Virus record (IMG/VR): IMGVR_UViG_2721755676_000007 | Strand: one strand, 5' to 3' | Source of the DNA: a virus | Lineage: Duplodnaviria; Heunggongvirae; Uroviricota; Caudoviricetes | DNA length: 60,642 bases | Shown: positions 3,671 to 33,500 of the stretch, in pieces | Position numbering within the stretch: position 1 is the stretch's first letter | Layout: the number at the start of each line of letters is the position of its first letter | Position numbers and translations under genes: made by a program | Notes under the pieces: generated by a model | The model's input: only the letters and a program-made list of their open reading frames with translations | What the model was told of the DNA's origin: nothing | Databases searched by the model: none

Positions 3671-4270
3671 TCAGAATTTATAACCGACACCCACGATGAA
3701 ACCGTCAGTGCGCCAGTCACCACTGCCGGAGCCTTCATAAGCAATATCAATGGCCACGGATTCGGTCGGGTTAAACTGCACGCCAGCCCCCCACGCCAGA
3801 GACGTGTTGCTGTGGCGACCGTCATCACTTCCGGTCAGCACATCGTGCTTTTTCCCCTTGTTGTCAGTTACGCGAAGATAATCCCCGGAGAAAGTCGACA
3901 CACGGCTGTAAGCTACACCCGCCATCGCATACGCGCTGAACCATTCATTCACGCGCACAGACGGCCCCGCCATTACGCTGAACCAGCGGTTACGAACGGA
4001 ATCTTCATGCCAGCGGGTATCGCTGTAACGGGTCAGCTGGCGATTCTTGTCTCCTGCATAGCTGAATGACGTCACCAGCCCCAGTGTGTCCGTAAACTCA
4101 TAACGGTATTTCACGTTAATCCCGTTCAGATCATCACTGCCGGGGACGTTCGTCGAGGCATGAAGATACCCTGCGCTCAGTGTGGCCTGCTGCTCAGACG
4201 CCCATGCAGGCGCACCGGATACGGCCAGACAGATGGCTGCGGACAAAATGGCTGCACAAACTTTACGCAT
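3671..4270 (-). CDS. lom: Outer membrane protein Lom (Ail/Lom family)
   Basis: 199-aa ORF with signal peptide and beta-barrel ending in aromatic F; position between J and stf as in lambda. Confidence 0.9.
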   Translation of the reverse strand: MRKVCAAILSAAICLAVSGAPAWASEQQATLSAGYLHASTNVPGSDDLNGINVKYRYEFTDTLGLVTSFSYAGDKNRQLTRYSDTRWHEDSVRNRWFSVMAGPSVRVNEWFSAYAMAGVAYSRVSTFSGDYLRVTDNKGKKHDVLTGSDDGRHSNTSLAWGAGVQFNPTESVAIDIAYEGSGSGDWRTDGFIVGVGYKF

Positions 4271-16177: not shown

Positions 16178-17203
16178 TTACGCCAGTTGTACGGACACGA
16201 ACTCATCAGGATCAGCCAGCAGCATCAGCGGTGCTGACTGAATCATGGTGAACTCTCGCGCCGGATCGCCGGATGTCTTCCAGTTTTTCGGATAACGGGG
16301 AGACGCATTAATACCCTCACTCAATGCGTCCGCATCCTGAATGCAGCCATAGGTGCGCAGACCGCGTGCCTGAGTGTTCCCCAGTACCATCGTGTTGTCC
16401 GGCAGGAAGTTCTTTTTGACGCCGTTTTCCACGTACTGTCCGGAATACACGACGATGGCCACATCGCCATACATCCCCTTATAGGACACCGCTTTACCCA
16501 GGTCTTTCACCGCTGTCTCCAGCTCGGAATGAGAGCCGCGACGGGTATCCAGCTTCTCCCTGACGGCTTTGAAGGAACGGAACAGCGCCCAGCCTTTCGG
16601 ATCAAACACGATGATATTCACCACGCCGCTGGCGTTCAGCGCGTAGGCTTCGATATCGTCGGTCGGGTCATACGTGGACTTGTCACGCTTGCTCCACTCC
16701 GTGCCGCCGGACTGCGTGATGTTGTTCGCCGCACTGCGGCCCATATCCACCTCAACCGGATCGAAGGCTTCACCGGTCATGGTGTATTTGCCCTTGAGCA
16801 CGGCAGAAACTGCCTGCATCTCTTCGACCTGAGCAATGGCCAGCTCTTCGTCACGCATGTTCTGCATGATGATGCGACGGCGGCGGTAAGCCGGGTCCGC
16901 CAGATTCTGCGGATCTTCATCCGGCAGGCGACGCAGGGTCATCTGCGGATTCACCTCATGCTTGGGTTTGACATATCCCGGCGTAAATTCAGAGGTGGAG
17001 CCGCCACGGGAACGGATAACCTCACCGGAAACAATCGGCGAAACGTACAGCGCCATGTTTACCAGTCCCGGAATTTGTGAGAGATAGACTTTCTCCGTAG
17101 TGAAGGGATAGCTCTCACGGAAAAAGAGACGCAGAAACAGCGGATCAAACTTAAATTTCTGCTCATTTGCCGCCAGCAGCTGGGCGGTTGTGTACATCGA
17201 CAT
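16178..17203 (-). CDS. E: Major capsid protein E
   Basis: Start at MSMYTTAQLLAANEQKFKFDPLFLRLFF gives 1026 nt as in lambda E. Confidence 0.93.
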   Translation of the reverse strand: MSMYTTAQLLAANEQKFKFDPLFLRLFFRESYPFTTEKVYLSQIPGLVNMALYVSPIVSGEVIRSRGGSTSEFTPGYVKPKHEVNPQMTLRRLPDEDPQNLADPAYRRRRIIMQNMRDEELAIAQVEEMQAVSAVLKGKYTMTGEAFDPVEVDMGRSAANNITQSGGTEWSKRDKSTYDPTDDIEAYALNASGVVNIIVFDPKGWALFRSFKAVREKLDTRRGSHSELETAVKDLGKAVSYKGMYGDVAIVVYSGQYVENGVKKNFLPDNTMVLGNTQARGLRTYGCIQDADALSEGINASPRYPKNWKTSGDPAREFTMIQSAPLMLLADPDEFVSVQLA

Positions 17204-17258
17204 AAAAAAATCCCGTAAAAAAAGCCGCACAGGCGGCCTTTAGTGATGAAGGGTAAAG

Positions 17259-17591
17259 TTAAACGATGCTGATTGCCGTTCCGGCAAACGCGGTCCGTTT
17301 TTTCGTCTCGTCGCTGGCAGCCTCCGGCCAGAGCACATCCTCATAACGGAACGTGCCGGACTTGTAGAACGTCAGTGTGGTGCTGGTCTGGTCAGCAGCA
17401 ACCGCCAGAATGCCAACGGCAGCACCGTCGGTGGTGCCATCCCACGCAACCAGCTTACGGGTGGAGGTGTCCAGCATCAGCGGGGTCATTGCAGGCGCTT
17501 TCGCACTCAATCCGCCGGGCGCGGTTGCGGTATGAGCCGGGTCACTATTGCCCAGCGGCTGGTAATGGGTAAAGGTTTCTTTGCTCGTCAT
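17259..17591 (-). CDS. D: Head decoration protein D
   Basis: Start at [12 protein letters not shown] gives 333 nt as in lambda D. Confidence 0.92.
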
Positions 17592-17600
17592 AAACATCCC

Positions 17601-18206
17601 TTACACTGGTGTGTTCAGCAAATCGTTAACGGCATCAGATGCCGGGTTACCTGCAGCCAGCGGTGCCGGTGCCCCCTGCATCAGACGATCCAGCGCAGTG
17701 TCACTGCGCGCCTGTGCACTCTGTGGTGCTGCGGCCAGAATACGGCGGGCCGTTTCCACGGTCATACCGGGGGTTTCTGCCAGCACGCGGGCCTGTTCTT
17801 CGCGTCCGTGAGCCTCCTCACAGTTGAGGATCCCCATAATGCGGCTGTTTTCTGCCGCAACCGCTGCGGTGATCTGCGCGTTCACGTCCGGCTGCGCCGC
17901 GCTGGCGTTTTCGCCCTCCGTCGCTGGCACCACGTCAGTAACGTCAGCCTGCGAAGCAGTGGCTGAAACAGTTGTTGATTGAGTCTCTTTGGTCATTCGC
18001 CCTCCTGAGAGACGGGATTTACGTGCATCCAGTGCATCACGCATGACGGTGATCGCATCGGTGCTGTTAACAAGTTCATCAGCCAGTCCGGCATCAATGG
18101 CCTCCTGACCGCTGTACACTGCAGCCTCGGTATCCAGCACAGCCTGCACGGACAGGCCGGTATATGCCGACACCTTCTGCGCAAACATCTGGCGGGTTGC
18201 GTCCAT
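17601..18206 (-). CDS. Nu3: Scaffolding protein Nu3 (in-frame internal start within C)
   Basis: Internal Met (MDATRQMFAQKVSAYTG) gives 606 nt sharing the C stop, as in lambda. Confidence 0.7.
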   Translation of the reverse strand: MDATRQMFAQKVSAYTGLSVQAVLDTEAAVYSGQEAIDAGLADELVNSTDAITVMRDALDARKSRLSGGRMTKETQSTTVSATASQADVTDVVPATEGENASAAQPDVNAQITAAVAAENSRIMGILNCEEAHGREEQARVLAETPGMTVETARRILAAAPQSAQARSDTALDRLMQGAPAPLAAGNPASDAVNDLLNTPV

Positions 18207-18920
18207 CCGGGACTGCAGTGTCTCCCGGACGTCATCCGGAAGATGGCTGTAGGGGTTGCCATCCACCTTATGGCTGCCGCTGTAAATCAGCGTGATTTCC
18301 ACACCCTGTTTCTCCAGGGCAGCACCGTAATTACTGTGAGCCATCATGACGCCGATGGAGCCTGTCCGGGCGGTCTGCGTGACCAGACGCCGGGAGGCGG
18401 CACTGGCAAGCAACTGACCTGCACTGCAGTTCATGTCGTTGGCCAGCGCCCATACCGGTTTTATGTCACGCACACGGGCGATGATGTCAGCGCAGTCAAA
18501 TGCCCCCGCCACCATCCCGCCGGGCGTGTCCATATCGAGCAGAATGCCGTCCACCATCGGATCGCTGGCAGCCTGTTGCAGACGGGCGATAATGCCGTTG
18601 TAACCGGTCATCCCCGAGTACGGCTGCAGCGCCCGCGTCCGGCTGACCAGCGTGCCGGACACCGGCAGCACGGCGATGCCGTTCATGACCTGATAACTGC
18701 GGGCCTGTCGTGGTCCGTCATCATCACCGGATAATGCCAGCGTCGCGAGTGCCTCCTGGGCAGTCAGGCTGTCGCCGGACACCGCATCCGTCAGGCGGCT
18801 GATCCCAAGCTGGCCTGCAAGCGCACAAAAGAAAACCCGCGCATAGGCGGGTTCAAGCATCAGCGGCTCATTAAAGGCCATACTGGCAATATGCGGGAGA
18901 TTACGCAGCTCTGCTGTCAC
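17601..18920 (-). CDS. C: Prohead protease / scaffold protein C (S49/ClpP-like)
   Basis: 1320 nt as in lambda C when started at the GTG at 18918-18920 (TAELRNLPHIASMAFNEPLMLEP); an in-frame ATG exists further upstream at 19055. Confidence 0.85.
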   Translation of the reverse strand: MTAELRNLPHIASMAFNEPLMLEPAYARVFFCALAGQLGISRLTDAVSGDSLTAQEALATLALSGDDDGPRQARSYQVMNGIAVLPVSGTLVSRTRALQPYSGMTGYNGIIARLQQAASDPMVDGILLDMDTPGGMVAGAFDCADIIARVRDIKPVWALANDMNCSAGQLLASAASRRLVTQTARTGSIGVMMAHSNYGAALEKQGVEITLIYSGSHKVDGNPYSHLPDDVRETLQSRMDATRQMFAQKVSAYTGLSVQAVLDTEAAVYSGQEAIDAGLADELVNSTDAITVMRDALDARKSRLSGGRMTKETQSTTVSATASQADVTDVVPATEGENASAAQPDVNAQITAAVAAENSRIMGILNCEEAHGREEQARVLAETPGMTVETARRILAAAPQSAQARSDTALDRLMQGAPAPLAAGNPASDAVNDLLNTPV

Positions 18921-19680
18921 TCTTCTCCTCCTCTGTTGATTGTCGCAGTCCGGATTCAAATGCCGCAGCCGCCCAGGCGGGCGGTTTAAGACCGGCTGCG
19001 CGGCGCTCCATCGTTTCACGGACCTGCTGGGCAAAAATTTCCTGATAGTCGTCACCGCGTTTCGCGCACTCTTTCTCGTAGGTGCTCAGTCCGGCTTCTA
19101 TCAGCATCACCGCTTCCTGAACTTCTTTCAGACCATCGATGGCCATACGACCGGAGCCTATCCAGTCGCAGTTCCCCCAGGCACTGCGGGCTTCCTGAAA
19201 ACTGAAGCGCGCTTTTGAAGGTAACGTCACCACGCGGCGAACGATGGCCTCTTCCAGCCAGCACAGAAACATCTGGCTCGCCTGACGGGATGCGACGAAT
19301 TTTCGCCGCCCCATAAAGTACGCCCACGACTCGTTCGCACTGGCCCGTGCCGTGGAGTAGCTCATCTGGGCGTAATTCCGGGAAAGCTGCTCATACGAGA
19401 CACCCAGCCCGGCAGCAATATACCGCAACAGTGACTGCTCAAATACGGAGTAGCCGTTATCCGTGTCCTGAGCCGTCTGCAGGTTCAGTGAGTCCCCCGG
19501 CATCAGGTGCGGCACTTTTGCGCCTCCCAGCCGGACCGGTGCTGCGGCGTAATACGCGGCAATTTCACCAATCCAGCCAGTCAGCCTTTCCCGCTGCTCC
19601 TGACTGTTCGCGCCCAGAATAAAATCCATCGCTGACTGCGTATCCAGCTCACTCTCAATGGTGGCGGCATACATCGCCTT
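18901..19680 (-). pseudogene. B: Portal protein B, C-terminal fragment (separated from its N-terminal part by the 10.9 kb insertion)
   Basis: Reads ...KA-MYAATIESELDTQSAMDFILGAN... to a C-terminus ending EEEKSDSRAA as in lambda B; upstream sequence beyond 19680 is unrelated. Confidence 0.9.
19673..19680. repeat. Left copy of the 8-bp junction direct repeat ATCGCCTT (att core or target duplication)
   Basis: Identical octamer at 30572-30579; both copies read K-A-(M/I) in the B frame. Confidence 0.85.
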
Positions 19681-19754
19681 TATGAAAAGACAGGAAAAAA
19701 TAAAATTTAAAAACAGTACATTACGAATGCTCAGACCTATCGTTTAAAGGAGTC

Positions 19755-19777
19755 GCAATACACACTGCAATACACGA
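19755..19777. repeat. Two direct copies of GCAATACAC(A/G) near the left end of the insert (candidate integrase arm sites)
   Basis: tcGCAATACACAcTGCAATACACGa; three copies of TGCAATACACA occur at the other end (30381-30434). Confidence 0.5.
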
Positions 19778-20107
19778 TTATTTATAAGATGAGCGGCATC
19801 CGTCATAAAGCTGGTGGATGCTTTTTCTATGCATATATGCACAGTTTTAGTGGGCGTTAATGTCGATATAGGGATCCCCATATCGAGATTGGATACCTGG
19901 CTTTTTTCCGGTTAACCTTTAATCAGGCTGGTGGGCTTTACCTGTTTTGTATGAGTGGTCATCATGACCATGTCATAACAAAAACCCCATATTCGTGGTT
20001 TTTCTGTGTCGGGCTATTCTGTCGTTGCTGTGCTGATTTGGCTGGTGGGCTGAATCATCATTACGGCGATGCAGCTATGTAGACGTTCCGGCCTCCTCAA
20101 ATTGAGG

Positions 20108-20245
20108 ATTGTGGAAGAATCAATGGGTTAGTCTTACTTTCCCGACATCCCCCAATGGGGGTTTTCGAAACAATCAATAGCTTAGGCTTACTTCCCCGAT
20201 TTCCTGCATTGCAGGTTTTCGAAATAATCAATGGGTTAGGCCATC
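20108..20245. repeat. 54-bp tandem repeat, about 2.5 copies, each unit containing a short hairpin palindrome
   Basis: AATCAATGGGTTAG / AATCAATAGCTTAG / AATCAATGGGTTAG at 20118, 20172, 20226; palindromes CCCCCAATGGGGG (20149-20161) and CCTGCATTGCAGG (20203-20215). Confidence 0.7.
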
Positions 20246-20489
20246 GTGCAATTTTGCACTTTGCCAGCCAGCGCAATGTCGCGTTATCAGTCCTCAGATG
20301 TGAGGGATGTAGCCAGCTTTTCCCCCAGTGGGGGATATCCAGCACCGACGGCTTAACTGTGCGTGCCAGCACAAGGTAGCCTTGAACTACTTACTGCATC
20401 CCATCTTACAGGCCGTGCCTTCCTGCTTAACTTTTTGCAATGCAACAAGTCAGCCAGCGCAATTTTGCGTTATCGGGAATATCAGCAAG

Positions 20490-24315: not shown

Positions 24316-24537
24316 TCTACCCATCTACCCGAATGCTCATCATGTCAGTAATGGCGCCGCTTTCAGCGGGTAGATAGCTTTTTTGACTCCTCTACCTGCC
24401 GTCTACCCTGCTACCTGAAACTGATAAAATCAGGTAGAAGAGGTAGAGAGCTTTTATTAGCCTTCTACCTAGCCCTATACCCACTTATCATGTTGAATAA
24501 TATGCGTTTATTTCGTTCAGGTAGATGGGGTAGATGG
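24316..24537. repeat. Iteron array (GGTAGA / TCTACC repeats), candidate satellite replication origin
   Basis: At least 12 copies of the hexamer in both orientations immediately downstream of the primase gene. Confidence 0.7.
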
Positions 24538-24550
24538 CTTTTACAAAAAA

Positions 24551-26305
24551 TTATAAAAACGCGTCGCAATCGTCTGTTGTAATTGCGTTGGTCTGCGTTA
24601 CTCCCTTAACTTTTCGCGTAATATATTCATGCCCGTAAACTTTCGCCGCTGGCTTCATGGCCTTGCTGAACTCAGCCACGTTTAGCGGTTTGCTCCTGCC
24701 CGCGTATGCCATAAACGCCAGATAGACGCGGTAAAGGCTGTTCCTGGTCGTGTACTTCACTGAATCACCACCGCCACCCATCATCAGGCCGCGCGCTTCC
24801 TCCAGAAAATTCAGGAACTGGCAAAACTCAATAACCGGATCCGTCTGTTGCTTTATTGCCAGTGCTTCATCACCGTCACGCTGTTCCAGTAGTAAAGCCC
24901 GTGCCTTCTCAGGGTCGGTAAAGTTCGCCAGCAATCGGCGGATAATAACGGGGATTTCAGCCGCAATCTTTTCCGGTAGCTCCCTGTCTTTTTCGGCCTC
25001 ACTGACGATATTGTCGAAACGGAAAATCACGCGACGACGTGCCACACCTCCGGCCCGTTCGGTGAATATCATCGGGTTGTTGTTGGTCGCCAGCACCACC
25101 GCCCTGATTACCGCCGTGAAACGCTTTTCATATTTCGGGTTAATTTCCACGGGGTCGCCGCCTGTGATTTTCTTGATGCCCGTTCCTTCGCCTGTATATT
25201 TCGGCTGGTCAGCCAGGACGATAAGACGACTCCCGACAACCTGCGCACGTCCACCAGCATCATCAAGCGATGTCATTTCAGCGCTTACCGTGTTCTGTTT
25301 CCCTGCCAGAAGGCTGGCTATGTGTGTGAATGTACTTTTACCGCTCCCGCCGTCTCCGGTGGCCTCAATAAACATCTGCCAGTCGTACCGGTTCGCCATA
25401 ATCATGTACAGCGCGGCACATATACGCATCATCTTGCGCGGGTCTTTTCCGGCTGCGTGCTCAAGCCATTTATGAAAGTTTGGCGCGTTATCGCGGATGT
25501 TCTCCCCTGGTGCTGGTGGCGTGTACTCAATGCCGTTGTGCGTGGTGATCCAGTTCTCCGGCGTGTGCGGGGAAAATTCCCCCGTTTTCAGGTCAAGCGC
25601 ACCATTGGCGAACGGCAGCAAATCGCCAGACGGCTCGCCCATTGGTTCGGCAATAACTTTTAACGCTTCCACGGCGTTATTGATTACGCGCTTGCTGAAA
25701 GTGGCCCTGTGCTCTGAATAGATCGCCACCATTTCGCGGCTAAGTTCCATTGTGCTGACCGGACACCATACCCCGCCGCGCCATACGTGAACGATTTCAC
25801 TTTCAGGATGTACGCAAACGCCATCAAAGCGATCGGCAAGCAACTGCGCGCGCTCACTGTCCGCCATCTGCGAAAGTTGCGCCTTTTGCTTTACCGGAAG
25901 CTCAATGACCAGACCATCAGAAAGATTCTGGCGTTCACGGGCCAGATATTCGCGCCAGTTCTGCACCTCCTGGCCGTGCATACCCTCAGGATAAAAATTT
26001 GCATCCTGTACGCCTGCTGCCGCCAGCTTCTGACCAATCGCCTTTATCATTACAGGCGCAAGATATCCGGCCCTGTATATGCGTGCTGATTTTCGGCCTT
26101 CCGGCACAATTTGCAGATTATCCAGTTCGGATAGCTGCTGCTCCCCAAGCCACACAGGAGGCTCATTATCTCCGGCCATACGCGCATCATGTTCCTGCCA
26201 TTGTTTCGCGTGTGCCCAGGCATCACTACCCGCAAAAATAATTACTTCTGTTCCTTTGTGTTTTATGCCGCGTGACTGCTGTTTTACGTTCGGTGCCAGT
26301 TTCAT
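24551..26305 (-). CDS. P4 alpha-like primase/helicase (D5 family, Walker A GDGGSGKST)
   Basis: 584-aa ORF with P-loop NTPase core and phage/plasmid primase C-terminal-type architecture. Confidence 0.8.
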   Translation of the reverse strand: MKLAPNVKQQSRGIKHKGTEVIIFAGSDAWAHAKQWQEHDARMAGDNEPPVWLGEQQLSELDNLQIVPEGRKSARIYRAGYLAPVMIKAIGQKLAAAGVQDANFYPEGMHGQEVQNWREYLARERQNLSDGLVIELPVKQKAQLSQMADSERAQLLADRFDGVCVHPESEIVHVWRGGVWCPVSTMELSREMVAIYSEHRATFSKRVINNAVEALKVIAEPMGEPSGDLLPFANGALDLKTGEFSPHTPENWITTHNGIEYTPPAPGENIRDNAPNFHKWLEHAAGKDPRKMMRICAALYMIMANRYDWQMFIEATGDGGSGKSTFTHIASLLAGKQNTVSAEMTSLDDAGGRAQVVGSRLIVLADQPKYTGEGTGIKKITGGDPVEINPKYEKRFTAVIRAVVLATNNNPMIFTERAGGVARRRVIFRFDNIVSEAEKDRELPEKIAAEIPVIIRRLLANFTDPEKARALLLEQRDGDEALAIKQQTDPVIEFCQFLNFLEEARGLMMGGGGDSVKYTTRNSLYRVYLAFMAYAGRSKPLNVAEFSKAMKPAAKVYGHEYITRKVKGVTQTNAITTDDCDAFL

Positions 26306-28236: not shown

Positions 28237-28560
28237 TCACTGAATGCGGTTACCAAAGTAAAACTCAGGCTGATATTCACGTATCAGCGTTTTTTCTTCT
28301 TCCTCCAGCTCACGCTTTTTGCGCTTACATGCCTGTAGCTCCCTCCCCTTCTCGCTGGCACTTATTTGATATTGCTCTTTACGGCGGGAAAAATCCTGTA
28401 ATGCACCCCACGGGATACCATAAGTCCCCGTTTTTCTGATACCTGGTATCACATTTCTGAATACCCAGTTACTGAAACGATGAGCAAATGTGCCAGGCGT
28501 CGTTGCTTTGCGGCTGCGGGCTATTAGTTTGTAGAAACCTGACTCAGAGATAATTCTCAT
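28237..28560 (-). CDS. Bro-N domain protein, C-terminal part (split ORF)
   Basis: SESGFYKLIARSRKATTPGTFAHRFSNWVFRNVIPGIRKTGTYG is the second half of a Bro-N domain. Confidence 0.6.
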   Translation of the reverse strand: MRIISESGFYKLIARSRKATTPGTFAHRFSNWVFRNVIPGIRKTGTYGIPWGALQDFSRRKEQYQISASEKGRELQACKRKKRELEEEEKTLIREYQPEFYFGNRIQ

Positions 28561-28814
28561 ATTCTGATTTCCTCCTGGGTGTAAGTTAAATTTACTCCCT
28601 TTTCATCATCATCAAGCATCTGCAACGCCGTACGCGAATTGGTTAGTTCCAGCGCAGCACAAACATCTTTTGCAACAAACCACGGATCGCCGTTCAGATA
28701 CACCACACGAACGTTCACACTATCAAAGCGCAGAACGACGAGATCACGAATATCGCAGAATTTTTTCACTGGACGAGCGTACCCCTTGCCCGTCACGGCA
28801 ATATTTTTATTCAT
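28557..28814 (-). CDS. Bro-N domain protein, N-terminal part (split ORF)
   Basis: DPWFVAKDVCAALELTNSRTALQMLDDDEKG is the first half of a Bro-N domain; ends GGAGGAAATCAGAATATGA overlapping the next start. Confidence 0.6.
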   Translation of the reverse strand: MNKNIAVTGKGYARPVKKFCDIRDLVVLRFDSVNVRVVYLNGDPWFVAKDVCAALELTNSRTALQMLDDDEKGVNLTYTQEEIRI

Positions 28815-28870: not shown

Positions 28871-29128
28871 TTATTGCTGTTTTGTTTTTCCAGGTTTCCA
28901 TCCAGGATGCCACTCACCACGGATCCATGCCTGAACCTCTGAAAGTCGATACCCTGCAGCACGTTCACCGATCTTGATACGTCGCGGGAATTTACCTGCC
29001 TGCTCCATTTTCCAGCGTGTTGAGTTTGCCAGCGTGGTAAGTGCTATGCACTCTTTTTCACGAATGAACCGATCAATGTCCTTCATTGTGCGCAAATCGT
29101 TTTCATCAACAAGAGAATAAATTGCCAT
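28871..29128 (-). CDS. alpA: AlpA-family transcriptional regulator / excisionase-like
   Basis: 85 aa directly downstream of the integrase, typical P4/CP4-57-type int-alpA pair. Confidence 0.7.
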   Translation of the reverse strand: MAIYSLVDENDLRTMKDIDRFIREKECIALTTLANSTRWKMEQAGKFPRRIKIGERAAGYRLSEVQAWIRGEWHPGWKPGKTKQQ

Positions 29129-29129
29129 A

Positions 29130-30371
29130 TCACACCACCTCTTTATTAAGCTCGATAACGTTGTTGTTAAATCCTGCTATCGTATTAAGGTAATTAACCC
29201 ACATATTAAGCACCTCAAGTTTTTTCTTTATATGCCTGCTTTTATTGTAAACACCAGCAACCCCTTTCACTTTATGACCTAAAAGAAGTTCGACAATATA
29301 AGGATCCGCCCCCATATCATTAAGCGTAGTGGAAAATGTGCGCCTGAAATCATGTATGCACCACAAGCCATTAGTATCATGACCAAGACGCCTGCATATT
29401 CTGTTTGCAGCCCCTGTTATTGTCGCCCTTTGCAAAGCACAACCGACAACATAACCGCGATTTTTTGTTTCTGCGTAAAGATTAACGATCCATTGTTTTA
29501 TTCCGTCAGGAACAGGCCTTACTATAGCCTCCTTGTTTTTGCTGTGCTCTTTTGGGACTGTCCATACCCAGTTTTTTAAATCCCATTCGTCCCAGGTGGA
29601 TAGCCTCGCCTCCTGCTGTCGGCAACCAAACACCAGGCAGATAACCATTATTCTTCGGTTATATATTGATGACAGAGTTAGCAAATTATTACCGTAAGCA
29701 TAAGACCATACATCAGCGGTTTCATTGATATTAAGAACGCGATCCCTTATACCGGATGAGCGCCCGACATAACTTACGTTAATATCTCCAAAGGGATCGC
29801 ACGCGATGTATTGCCTGACGCGACAAAAACGCAACGCCTGTTTGATATCAAGAAAAATTGCACCAGACATAACAGGCGCATTTTTTTTGATCCTGTCAAA
29901 GACGGTAAGCCATGTGTGTAATTTGCACTGTTCTATAGCCATATCACCGATATAGGGGAAGATATGCTTTTCAAATCGTTTTATTAAATATTCATGCTCT
30001 TTTCTGGCTGTTGTGGCGTGATTGTCGTACCAGTAAAACAGCGCATCCCTTACGGTCACTGGTTGCATAGTTTTTTCGGCAGCAAGTTTTATTTGCCTGC
30101 GGGGGTCCAGATTTTCAGCCAGCCATTCACGGCACTGATCACGCATGCGCCTGGCCGTTGCAAGAGACATGTCAGGATAGCGACCAAGTGTAAGCCATAC
30201 CGGAGGGGATTCCCTGCCACCAAGACGATAGTAAAAAACAAAGCTGATCCCCCCAACCATGCTTACACGCACAGACAACCCGCGCCCATCCGCTATTGTT
30301 TTTTGTTTGTCCTGCCGTTTTCCGACAAGACTCTTTAACAGTTTGTCACTGAGTTTGTTTTCAATAGCCAT
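29130..30371 (-). CDS. int: Tyrosine integrase, P4-type
   Basis: 413 aa; N-terminal GRGLSVRV...GGISFVFYYRLGGR arm-binding-type domain; C-terminal HDFRRT...LLGH...Y catalytic signature. Confidence 0.88.
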   Translation of the reverse strand: MAIENKLSDKLLKSLVGKRQDKQKTIADGRGLSVRVSMVGGISFVFYYRLGGRESPPVWLTLGRYPDMSLATARRMRDQCREWLAENLDPRRQIKLAAEKTMQPVTVRDALFYWYDNHATTARKEHEYLIKRFEKHIFPYIGDMAIEQCKLHTWLTVFDRIKKNAPVMSGAIFLDIKQALRFCRVRQYIACDPFGDINVSYVGRSSGIRDRVLNINETADVWSYAYGNNLLTLSSIYNRRIMVICLVFGCRQQEARLSTWDEWDLKNWVWTVPKEHSKNKEAIVRPVPDGIKQWIVNLYAETKNRGYVVGCALQRATITGAANRICRRLGHDTNGLWCIHDFRRTFSTTLNDMGADPYIVELLLGHKVKGVAGVYNKSRHIKKKLEVLNMWVNYLNTIAGFNNNVIELNKEVV

Positions 30372-30380
30372 TAAAAGCCC

Positions 30381-30434
30381 TCAAGAGATTTGCAATACAC
30401 ACCCATCCCGATCGCCAATTTGCAATACACATTG
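30381..30434. repeat. Three direct copies of TGCAATACACA upstream of the satellite integrase (candidate arm-type sites)
   Basis: Copies at 30381, 30411 and 30424; same motif twice at the opposite end of the insert. Confidence 0.55.
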
Positions 30435-30571
30435 CAATACACAAAACCGCGAAAAACTGGAAGGGTGATGAACGGTCATCAAAAGCATGGAAAACGACAT
30501 TCCAGACGCAGCAAGGGTTTCAGTGGAGTTGGCGAACGATGCGGGCAACTACGGTGAGATGATAGACATAA

Positions 30572-33500
<2,929 letters not shown>

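What the first reader, a model, noticed from the sequence alone, without database searches (positions are those of the whole stretch)
30381..30434. TGCAATACACA repeats at both ends of the insert look like integrase arm-type sites
Three direct copies lie between the integrase start and the right junction (30381, 30411, 30424) and two lie 75-95 bp inside the left junction (19755-19777), all in the same orientation. The right cluster also contains ATCGCCAATT, resembling the ATCGCCTT junction core. This supports tyrosine-integrase site-specific recombination rather than transposition.
Basis: partly seen in the sequence, partly recalled or inferred. Interest (0 to 1): 0.5.

Follow-up and report, generated by a model that had tools for sequence, protein, structure and literature searches.

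The report
Integrase arm sites of embedded satellite
The repeated TGCAATACACA words are real and most likely the docking sites that let a small phage-parasite's integrase cut it in and out of its helper prophage's portal gene, but both the motif and this reading of it were published in 2023, so the finding is sound rather than new.

Summary
The repeats are real, but the right-hand coordinates are 10 nt low. Exact TGCAATACACA lies at 30391, 30421 and 30433. One-mismatch copies lie at 19754 and 19766. All five are on one strand, and there is no other copy with one mismatch or fewer in 60.6 kb.

They sit in the two arms of the attP of a 10.9-kb satellite. It is flanked by ATCGCCTT and inserted in the lambda-B-like portal gene of a lambdoid prophage.

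This is a published element type, the helper-embedded PICI (Tommasini, Mageeney and Williams 2023), site group B_Phage_portal_2_241. That paper already reports the doubled motif tgTGTATTGCantgTGTATTGCa about 81 and 132 bp from the attP centre. It left open whether Int arm domains or AlpA bind it.

My additions:
- Phage P4 has the same layout: a 12-bp-phased pair in each arm plus a fifth copy.
- About 70 other integrase relatives carry an analogous pair upstream of int, in five other sequence classes.
- Motif class tracks the Int N-terminal arm-binding domain (nearest-neighbour 79/79). It tracks the AlpA-like protein (45/59) and the catalytic domain much less well.
- Natural chimeras confirm this.
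- The fifth copy is conserved among portal-site relatives.

Verdict: interpretation supported, already known, low interest.

The parts
30421..30443 (-). Int-proximal doubled motif. On the int strand it reads TGTGTATTGCAaTGTGTATTGCA: two copies 12 bp apart, 128 bp from the core.
   Evidence: It is invariant over 21 columns in 5 portal-site relatives. It matches the published doubled motif.
30391..30401 (-). Fifth, single copy of the motif. It lies 19 nt downstream of the pair on the int strand and ends 19 nt before the int start codon.
   Evidence: It is conserved in the relatives L003, L004, L009 and L012 (one mismatch in L012). It is absent downstream of the pair in the other site groups sampled; three capsid-E-site loci (L006, L013, L014) and three at an undetermined site (L015, L016, L078) carry a degenerate GTTGC-like element upstream of the pair instead. 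The passages of the 2023 paper that I read do not mention it.
19754..19776 (-). Int-distal doubled motif. On the int strand it reads CGTGTATTGCAgTGTGTATTGCG, 73 bp from the core.
   Evidence: It is conserved in L003 and L009.
30572..30579 (.). Int-proximal junction: the 8-bp identity block ATCGCCTT (aaggcgat on the int strand), which contains the crossover region.
   Evidence: The same block is listed for group B_Phage_portal_2_241 in the paper's supplement.
19673..19680 (.). Int-distal junction: the second copy of ATCGCCTT.
   Evidence: Joining the two ends gives the attP core tcttttCATAAAGGCGATTTATGtc, with 6-bp inverted half-sites CATAAA/TTTATG.
29130..30371 (-). int: a 413-aa tyrosine integrase of the P4/CP4 type.
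   Evidence: Pfam Arm-DNA-bind_3, Phage_integrase and a just-sub-threshold Phage_int_M match (26.1 bits against a cutoff of 27). Catalytic R251, K278, H340, R343, H366 and Y375 are invariant in alignment A1. The N-domain is homologous to solved CP4-like integrase N-domains 3JU0 and 3JTZ.
28871..29128 (-). alpA: an 85-aa gene for the putative excisionase/regulator, abutting int.
   Evidence: Pfam Phage_AlpA, E=5e-14. It abuts int only in the motif-positive clade.
30466..30481 (.). Palindrome TGATGAACGGTCATCA between the core and the proximal pair. It is a candidate site for an accessory protein; the binder is unknown.
   Evidence: It is conserved in 4 of 5 portal-site relatives.
30580..31401 (-). 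N-terminal part of the interrupted helper portal gene (lambda B cognate).
   Evidence: annotated as partial phage portal protein in RefSeq copies.
18901..19672 (-). C-terminal part of the interrupted portal gene.

Best explanation
The five TGTGTATTGCA copies (read on the int strand) are the arm-type binding sites of the attP of a helper-embedded PICI satellite.

Proposed mechanism:
- The satellite's integrase is heterobivalent.
- Its N-terminal Arm-DNA-bind_3 domain holds the repeats. Two lie in the distal arm 73-96 bp from the core, and three lie in the int-proximal arm 128-188 bp from it.
- Its core-binding and catalytic domains engage the inverted half-sites CATAAA/TTTATG around the crossover in AAGGCGAT.
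- The resulting intasome recombines attP with the sequence GCATACATCGCCTTCACAATGGC inside the helper prophage's portal gene. With AlpA as the probable directionality factor, it reverses the reaction and restores the portal gene.

Shown here: the repeats, their placement, their conservation, the site specificity, the domain content of Int, and the family-wide co-variation of repeat sequence with the Int N-domain.

Inferred: physical binding by Int, the role of AlpA, and the use of all five sites.

Because the proximal sites lie 19-72 nt upstream of int, they may also let Int modulate its own expression, as reported for P4 and KplE1.
For: 1. Non-random and placed symmetrically in attP. The pairs are 232 bp apart start to start.

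2. Phylogenetic footprint. In the relatives L003 (Int 88%), L004 (76%), L009 (69%) and L012 (70%), the pair and the single copy are invariant while the spacers diverge.

3. Distribution. All 18 loci with Int at 48% identity or more carry the pair just upstream of int. Each of the 9 loci long enough to reach the far end shows exactly two pairs, both on the int strand and about 10 kb apart, whatever late gene is targeted.

4. Phage P4 has the same design. Its GenBank record annotates 12-mer 'attP arm sequence repeats' as a tandem pair upstream of int, a tandem pair beyond the core, and one more at the int start.

5. Sixty-eight of the 71 relatives that lack the TGTATTGC motif and had enough upstream sequence to score carry a 12-bp-phased pair at the same place, in five other sequence classes.

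6. Class membership is predicted by each protein as follows:

| Protein or domain | AUC | Nearest-neighbour |
|---|---|---|
| Int residues 1-95 | 0.97-0.997 | 79/79 and 58/59 |
| Int middle domain | 0.80-0.83 | 66/79 and 47/59 |
| Int catalytic domain | 0.80-0.82 | 70/79 and 50/59 |
| AlpA-like protein | 0.81 | 45/59 |

7. Natural chimeras. Proteus locus L051 versus L057/L058 share 99-100% of the middle domain, 94% of the catalytic domain and 97-98% of the AlpA-like protein, but only 66% of the N-domain, and they have different repeat classes. The DNA breakpoint lies at about -177 to +211 of int.

8. Residues that discriminate the classes cluster at Int positions 23-25, 30, 41, 47 and 54-59, inside the arm-binding domain.

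9. Islands that lie beside the fis gene at their int-distal end (L029, L080, L084; taken to be fis-site islands) have their own class of pair in both arms.

10. Literature. The motif and its spacing are published, with Int arm domains offered as a binder. P4 Int autoregulates by direct DNA binding upstream of int, as relayed in PMC2951348.
Against: - No binding data exist for this element.
- The HE-PICI clade has a single motif class. The co-variation argument therefore comes from the wider family, not from within the clade.
- The N-domain coding sequence is physically adjacent to the proximal arm, and to the whole attP in the circular form. Recombination can move them together, so linkage inflates the association.
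- alpA abuts int only in the motif-positive clade. This is also compatible with an AlpA-specific site.
- No IHF consensus was found in the reconstructed attP, so the bending component of a lambda-like intasome is unidentified.
- No consensus sigma-70 promoter was found upstream of int, so the autoregulation idea is untested.
Confidence: 0.8

Rival explanations
1. The repeats are binding sites for AlpA, the excisionase/transcription factor encoded next to int. AlpA would bend both arms for excision or activate transcription, and Int would not bind there.
For: - The authors of PMC10111431 raised this option.
- alpA directly abuts int only in the clade that carries this motif.
- Directionality factors typically bind direct repeats about one helical turn apart (abstract of PMC7498355).
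Against: - Across 59 relatives, repeat class is predicted poorly by AlpA-like similarity (AUC 0.81, nearest-neighbour 45/59) compared with the Int N-domain (0.997, 58/59).
- Pairs with 91-98% identical AlpA-like proteins have different repeat classes: L051 vs L057/L058, L033 vs L063, and L041 vs L049.
- The same pair architecture is found where no alpA lies next to int, and in P4, where the record calls the repeats arm repeats.
- From general knowledge, directionality factors such as lambda Xis usually occupy one arm. These repeats sit in both arms in equal pairs.
Confidence: 0.12
2. The proximal cluster is only an operator for int/alpA transcription, and the distal copies are incidental.
For: - The three proximal copies lie 19-72 nt upstream of the int start codon.
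- In KplE1 and P4, arm sites overlap the int promoter and mediate autorepression.
Against: - No consensus sigma-70 promoter is present there.
- The distal pair is as well conserved as the proximal one and keeps a fixed distance from the core. That makes no sense for a pure operator.
- The two roles are not exclusive.
Confidence: 0.05
3. The repeats are transposon-end, replication (iteron) or packaging (TerS/cos) sites, or simply chance.
For: - The insert is flanked by a short 8-bp direct repeat that could be taken for a target duplication.
- The satellite encodes a primase and a Nu1-like small terminase.
Against: - Chance is excluded.
- There are no terminal inverted repeats at the ends.
- The int end lies next to an annotated portal gene in every listed record of 63 genomes. 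Every junction read base by base is identical, including in a diverged portal.
- Separate iteron-like repeats lie downstream of the primase gene at 24368-24542.
- The Edwardsiella relative L003 has no Nu1 gene in the satellite yet keeps both pairs.
- The motif follows Int, not the late-gene content.
Confidence: 0.02

Closest known systems
HE-PICI doubled attP motif (Tommasini, Mageeney and Williams 2023, NAR Genom Bioinform 5:lqad036; PMC10111431), site group B_Phage_portal_2_241
   Same: - Same element type: int-alpA-Bro-pri-SSB-capsid E/D-Nu1, embedded in and co-oriented with a lambdoid late gene.
- Same att identity block, aaggcgat.
- Same motif, tgTGTATTGCantgTGTATTGCa, twice per attP and co-oriented.
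- Distances here are about 78 and 132 bp from the core centre, against the published 81 +/- 2 and 132 +/- 2.
   Different: Nothing essential differs. The window also shows a fifth single copy next to int, conserved in the portal-site subgroup, which the text I read does not mention. The paper left the binder open and stated that the motif is unique to HE-PICIs. I find that relatives have the same architecture with other sequences.
Phage P4 attP arm repeats (annotated in NC_001609; Pierson and Kahn 1987, recalled from memory and not held in the library)
   Same: - Same integrase family.
- A tandem pair of 12-bp-phased repeats immediately upstream of int, and a co-oriented tandem pair on the other side of the core.
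- A fifth copy at the int start.
   Different: - The repeat sequence is TTGGGGGCAT rather than TGTGTATTGCA.
- The fifth copy is inverted in P4.
- The pairs are 209 bp apart rather than 232 bp.
- P4 targets a tRNA-Leu gene with a 20-bp core, not a phage portal gene with an 8-bp identity block.
Lambda Int arm-type sites P1, P2, P'1-P'3 (textbook knowledge; PMC4880445 and PMC2951348 introductions)
   Same: - A heterobivalent integrase.
- Five arm sites split 2 + 3 between the arms, with three on the int side.
- An attP of a few hundred bp.
- Core half-sites inverted around a roughly 7-bp overlap.
   Different: - A different N-domain family (PF13356 here).
- Strict 12-bp tandem pairing.
- No recognisable IHF consensus.
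- The accessory sites are undefined.
KplE1 IntS/TorI attL-promoter overlap (Panis et al. 2010, PMC2951348)
   Same: The arm sites lie between the junction and the int start, so Int bound there can repress int.
   Different: KplE1 has a mapped sigma-70 promoter among the sites. None is predicted here, and int may instead be read through from the helper's late operon, as the HE-PICI paper proposes.

Membership tests
Helper-embedded PICI (HE-PICI), group B_Phage_portal_2_241 | [quoted passage not shown] | tested here: met
   The portal gene is split at 19672/30580, and all key satellite genes are on the same (minus) strand as the portal gene.
Helper-embedded PICI (HE-PICI), group B_Phage_portal_2_241 | The PICI gene set: int, alpA, a Bro-N zone, pri, and captured late genes. 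| tested here: met
   Pfam hits for Arm-DNA-bind_3/Phage_integrase, Phage_AlpA, Bro-N, D5_N/DUF5906, SSB, Phage_cap_E, HDPD and Phage_Nu1.
Helper-embedded PICI (HE-PICI), group B_Phage_portal_2_241 | The att identity block aaggcgat at the portal site. | tested here: met
   ATCGCCTT is present at both junctions. The supplement row for Eco14781.11.B_Phage_portal_2_241 lists aaggcgat.
Helper-embedded PICI (HE-PICI), group B_Phage_portal_2_241 | The doubled motif tgTGTATTGCantgTGTATTGCa twice in attP at fixed distances. | tested here: met
   In the reconstructed attP the pairs start at positions 55 and 287 and the core is at 151-158.
Helper-embedded PICI (HE-PICI), group B_Phage_portal_2_241 | Excises after helper induction and restores the late gene. 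| not testable with these tools
   This was shown experimentally only for the related 11capE element. Joining the flanks here restores an intact ...VKAMYAA... portal reading frame.
Arm-type sites of a heterobivalent tyrosine integrase | The integrase has a separate N-terminal arm-binding domain and an intact catalytic set. | tested here: met
   PF13356, E=3e-17. PDB homologues 3JU0 and 3JTZ. R251, K278, H340, R343, H366 and Y375 are invariant.
Arm-type sites of a heterobivalent tyrosine integrase | Repeats unlike the core sequence, present in both arms of attP. | tested here: met
Arm-type sites of a heterobivalent tyrosine integrase | The sites are bound by the Int N-terminal domain. | not testable with these tools
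   Only indirect evidence is available. Repeat class tracks the N-domain (nearest-neighbour 79/79) and natural N-domain swaps change the class.
Arm-type sites of a heterobivalent tyrosine integrase | Sites for DNA-bending accessory proteins (IHF or similar) between the arms and the core. | tested here: not met
   There is no WATCAANNNNTTR match, nor a match to the relaxed form, in the 358-bp attP. A conserved palindrome at 30466-30481 is an unassigned candidate.
P4-type attP architecture | A co-oriented tandem pair of 12-bp repeats in each arm, with the proximal pair just upstream of int. | tested here: met
   The window pairs are spaced 12 bp. The P4 annotated repeats are at 3942-3965 and 4151-4174.
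Transposon ends with a target-site duplication | Terminal inverted repeats and variable insertion sites. | tested here: not met
   There is no inverted repeat between the two ends. The int end lies next to a portal gene in every listed record of 63 genomes, and every junction read is identical, including in other genera.
Recombination directionality factor (AlpA/Xis-type) sites | The site sequence is determined by the directionality factor. | tested here: not met
   Family-wide, AlpA-like similarity predicts repeat class poorly. Proteins that are 97-98% identical accompany different classes. This could not be tested within the HE-PICI clade itself, which has a single class.

The most novel reading that the evidence does not exclude
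The HE-PICI motif is one allele of a family-wide 'arm code'. P4/CP4-type integrases would use a 12-bp-phased tandem pair in each arm, with the two pairs roughly 210-233 bp apart (seen in three element types). The sequence of the pair (TGTATTGC, GTGTATCA, TGTATAAAC, GTGTAGTC, GTGGGGTA, GGGGTACAT, or GGGGGCAT in P4) would be read by a handful of residues at positions 23-25, 30, 41, 47 and 54-59 of the Arm-DNA-bind_3 domain. The N-domain plus arm repeats would be exchanged between integrases as a module, independently of the core and catalytic specificity. If so, this would settle the Int-versus-AlpA question left open in 2023 and would give a rule for re-pairing arms and integrases.
Probability: 0.65. 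Interest if true: 0.4.

Novelty: already known. Interest (0 to 1): 0.22.

Why it matters
For the window, it confirms that the 10.9-kb insert is a site-specific, excisable satellite. The interrupted portal gene is a regulated state, not decay.

More generally, the arm sites with fixed spacing are what constrain how this integrase clade can evolve new targets in phage late genes.

The family-wide comparison gives a computational answer to the question of who binds the motif: the Int N-domain, not AlpA. It also yields testable specificity residues. That is useful for anyone wishing to use these integrases or to predict attP sites of P4-type islands, but it extends published work rather than discovering something new.

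Tried and rejected
- A sigma-70 promoter scan between the junction and int found nothing. The autoregulation idea therefore remains inference only.
- Rfam on the whole insert gave no hit.
- An IHF consensus search in the reconstructed attP gave no hit.
- A distant blastn of the int end in E. coli genomes found only near-identical copies. Diverged relatives had to be reached through protein searches.
- P0005 had no contig on record.
- The primary P4 papers (Pierson and Kahn 1987; Cali 2004; Piazzolla 2006) are not held. P4 evidence rests on the GenBank annotation, a secondary citation and my memory.
- The first clustering simulation timed out and was rerun.
- One search used wrong coordinates and was replaced.
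- An early class assignment mislabelled three GGGGTACAT loci as GTGGGGTA. This was corrected.
- The ATCGCCAATT core-like idea is rejected: it is not conserved, and the hexamer is common.
- A search for the distal pair in the non-HE classes mostly failed because those islands exceed the 10-kb flank.

Full report
**Observation**

The motif is real, but the right-hand coordinates are 10 nt too low.
- Exact TGCAATACACA on the + strand lies at 30391-30401, 30421-30431 and 30433-30443.
- One-mismatch copies lie at 19754-19764 (CGCAATACACA) and 19766-19776 (TGCAATACACG).
- With up to one mismatch there are exactly these five matches on both strands of the 60.6-kb window.
- The 9-mer GCAATACAC occurs five times against 0.46 expected.
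- This motif supplies the only 11-mers in the window with three non-overlapping copies within 60 nt. None of 100 Markov simulations produced such a cluster.
- All copies point the same way. Within each tandem pair the spacing is 12 bp.

**Context**

The repeats lie at the two ends of a 10.9-kb insert bounded by ATCGCCTT (19673-19680 and 30572-30579). The insert splits a lambda-B-like portal gene on the minus strand.

All insert genes below are co-oriented with the portal gene:
- a 413-aa tyrosine integrase with Arm-DNA-bind_3, Phage_integrase and a just-sub-threshold Phage_int_M match (26.1 bits against 27)
- AlpA
- a Bro-N protein
- a D5_N/DUF5906 primase
- SSB
- lambda E-like and D-like capsid proteins
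- a second AlpA-like HTH protein
- a Nu1-like small terminase

Evidence that integration is site-specific:
- Fifty-two complete E. coli genomes hold the whole element.
- Sixty-three hold its int end, and in every listed record it lies next to an annotated portal gene.
- The junction was read base by base in two of those genomes. In strain VL7S7 the flanking portal DNA is clearly diverged, yet the junction is identical to the base.
- Relatives with Int 88% (Edwardsiella), 76% (Serratia), 70% (Erwinia) and 69% (a metagenome contig) identical sit at the same portal position.
- A 54% relative sits in the capsid gene E, and a 55% relative sits in another type of portal gene.

This is site-specific integration, not transposition. 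No terminal inverted repeats exist.

**Anatomy of attP**

Joining the ends gives a 358-bp attP. Read on the int strand, it runs as follows.

| Feature | Position or spacing |
|---|---|
| Distal pair | positions 55-77 |
| Spacer | 73 bp |
| Core tcttttCATAAAGGCGATTTATGtc, with 6-bp inverted half-sites around the crossover | identity block at 151-158 |
| Spacer | 128 bp |
| Proximal pair | positions 287-309 |
| Spacer | 19 nt |
| Single fifth copy | positions 329-339 |
| Spacer | 19 nt |
| int ATG | position 359 |

The two pairs are 232 bp apart, about 22 helical turns.

In the metagenome relative L009 the identity block is AAAGCCAT rather than AAGGCGAT at both junctions. It matches the synonymous variant of that host's portal gene, while the flanking half-sites stay the same.

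**Already published**

A literature search found Tommasini, Mageeney and Williams 2023 (PMC10111431). That paper:
- defines helper-embedded PICIs;
- reports 491 of them at 14 sites in lambda-like late genes;
- shows excision of one of them after helper induction;
- states that HE-PICI attPs carry the doubled motif tgTGTATTGCantgTGTATTGCa twice, co-oriented, 81 +/- 2 bp upstream and 132 +/- 2 bp downstream of the attP centre.

The paper calls the motif unique to HE-PICIs. It says it may be bound by the integrase arm domains, by AlpA, or by an unknown protein. Its supplement lists group B_Phage_portal_2_241 with the identity block aaggcgat, which is this window's site.

**What the comparison adds**

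First, a footprint. In five portal-site elements the pair (21 consecutive invariant columns) and the single copy are conserved while the spacers diverge. ATCGCC occurs 55 times in the window.

Second, distribution. I fetched 80 integrase relatives from species-representative genomes.
- The TGTATTGC pair lies just upstream of int in all 18 loci with Int at 48% identity or more.
- It lies upstream of int in none of the loci at 47% identity or below.
- Each of the 9 loci long enough to reach the far end has exactly two pairs, both on the int strand.

Third, the motif-negative relatives are not bare. Sixty-eight of the 71 with enough upstream sequence to score carry a tandem pair with the same 12-bp phasing at the same place, in five other sequence classes: GTGTATCA, TGTATAAAC, GTGTAGTC, GTGGGGTA and GGGGTACAT. 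Three islands that lie beside the fis gene at their int-distal end show their own class in both arms.

Phage P4 itself has TTGGGGGCAT pairs upstream of int and beyond the core, plus a fifth copy at the int start. Its GenBank record annotates them as attP arm sequence repeats.

**Int or AlpA?**

I asked which protein's similarity predicts the repeat class.

| Protein or domain | AUC | Nearest-neighbour |
|---|---|---|
| Int residues 1-95 | 0.97-0.997 | 79/79 and 58/59 |
| Int middle domain | 0.80-0.83 | 66/79 and 47/59 |
| Int catalytic domain | 0.80-0.82 | 70/79 and 50/59 |
| AlpA-like protein downstream | 0.81 | 45/59 |

Natural chimeras make the point directly. Proteus mirabilis L051 (GTGGGGTA class) and P. 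columbae/hauseri L057/L058 (TGTATAAAC class) compare as follows:
- middle domain 99-100% identical
- catalytic domain 94% identical
- AlpA-like protein 97-98% identical
- N-domain only 66% identical

The diverged DNA segment runs from about -177 to +211 of int, which covers the proximal arm plus the N-domain.

The most class-informative residues cluster at Int positions 23-25, 30, 41, 47 and 54-59. Q23, P57 and W59 are invariant in the HE-PICI clade.

Caveats:
- The N-domain coding sequence is physically linked to the arm.
- The HE-PICI clade itself has only one class, so this is family-level evidence.

**Mechanism**

Most likely (0.8), the five sites are arm-type sites held by the Int N-domain. 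The C-terminal domains act on the core. This builds an intasome that integrates the satellite into the portal codons for K-A-M. With AlpA as the likely directionality factor, the reaction reverses and restores the portal gene.

No IHF consensus and no consensus promoter upstream of int were found. A conserved palindrome at 30466-30481 is an unassigned candidate accessory site.

Int bound at the proximal sites could also modulate int expression, as reported for KplE1 and P4. The HE-PICI paper proposes read-through from the helper late operon.

**Verdict**

Novelty: already known.

The fifth site, the P4-like family architecture and the N-domain co-variation are incremental additions that favour Int over AlpA.

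Noticed in passing
window 28237-28814 (about 28579): The satellite's Bro-N gene carries a 1-nt deletion relative to the 192-aa gene in strain F404 (L001). This splits it into 85-aa and 107-aa ORFs. It is either a frameshift pseudogene or a sequencing error.
   Followed up: partly
window 20088-20249: There are three tandem copies of a 54-nt unit (65-72% identity), each containing a short palindrome. They lie in the 1.1-kb non-coding stretch between the small-terminase gene and the distal arm. Their function is unknown; a packaging or regulatory-RNA region is possible. There was no Rfam hit.
   Followed up: no
window 24368-24542: Iteron-like repeats (GGGTAGATAGCTTTT three times, inside an 87-bp duplicated unit) lie just downstream of the primase gene. 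They fit the PICI ori position described in PMC10111431.
   Followed up: no
window 30466-30481: The palindrome TGATGAACGGTCATCA lies between the core and the proximal pair. It is conserved in 4 of 5 portal-site relatives. It is a candidate site for AlpA or another accessory protein.
   Followed up: partly
L009 9790-9800 and 20290-20300, compared with window 30572-30579: The attP identity block differs (AAAGCCAT versus AAGGCGAT) in step with a synonymous variant of the host portal codons, while the flanking half-sites stay constant. The core tracks the target.
   Followed up: partly
L051 versus L057/L058 (Proteus), about -177 to +211 relative to int: This is a natural module swap. The proximal arm repeats plus the Int N-domain are replaced, while the rest of int and the AlpA-like gene stay 94-100% identical.
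   Followed up: yes
L082, L083, L089 (Shewanella), -278 and -45 relative to int: Both GGGGTACAT pairs lie upstream of int, 233 bp apart. This is the spacing of an uninterrupted attP, which suggests an unintegrated, tandem or differently organised element. L086 and L090 carry 4-6 tandem copies instead of 2.
   Followed up: no
window 26037-26047: ATCGCCTTtat, the same 11 nt as the left junction, also occurs inside the satellite's primase gene. It is probably chance (ATCGCCTT occurs 5 times in the window) but is a possible secondary core-like site.
   Followed up: no
L006 (E. coli) 17097-18488: In the capsid-E-site relative, the satellite's capsid E-like and decoration D-like domains are called as a single 463-aa fused product. 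In this window they are separate genes.
   Followed up: no
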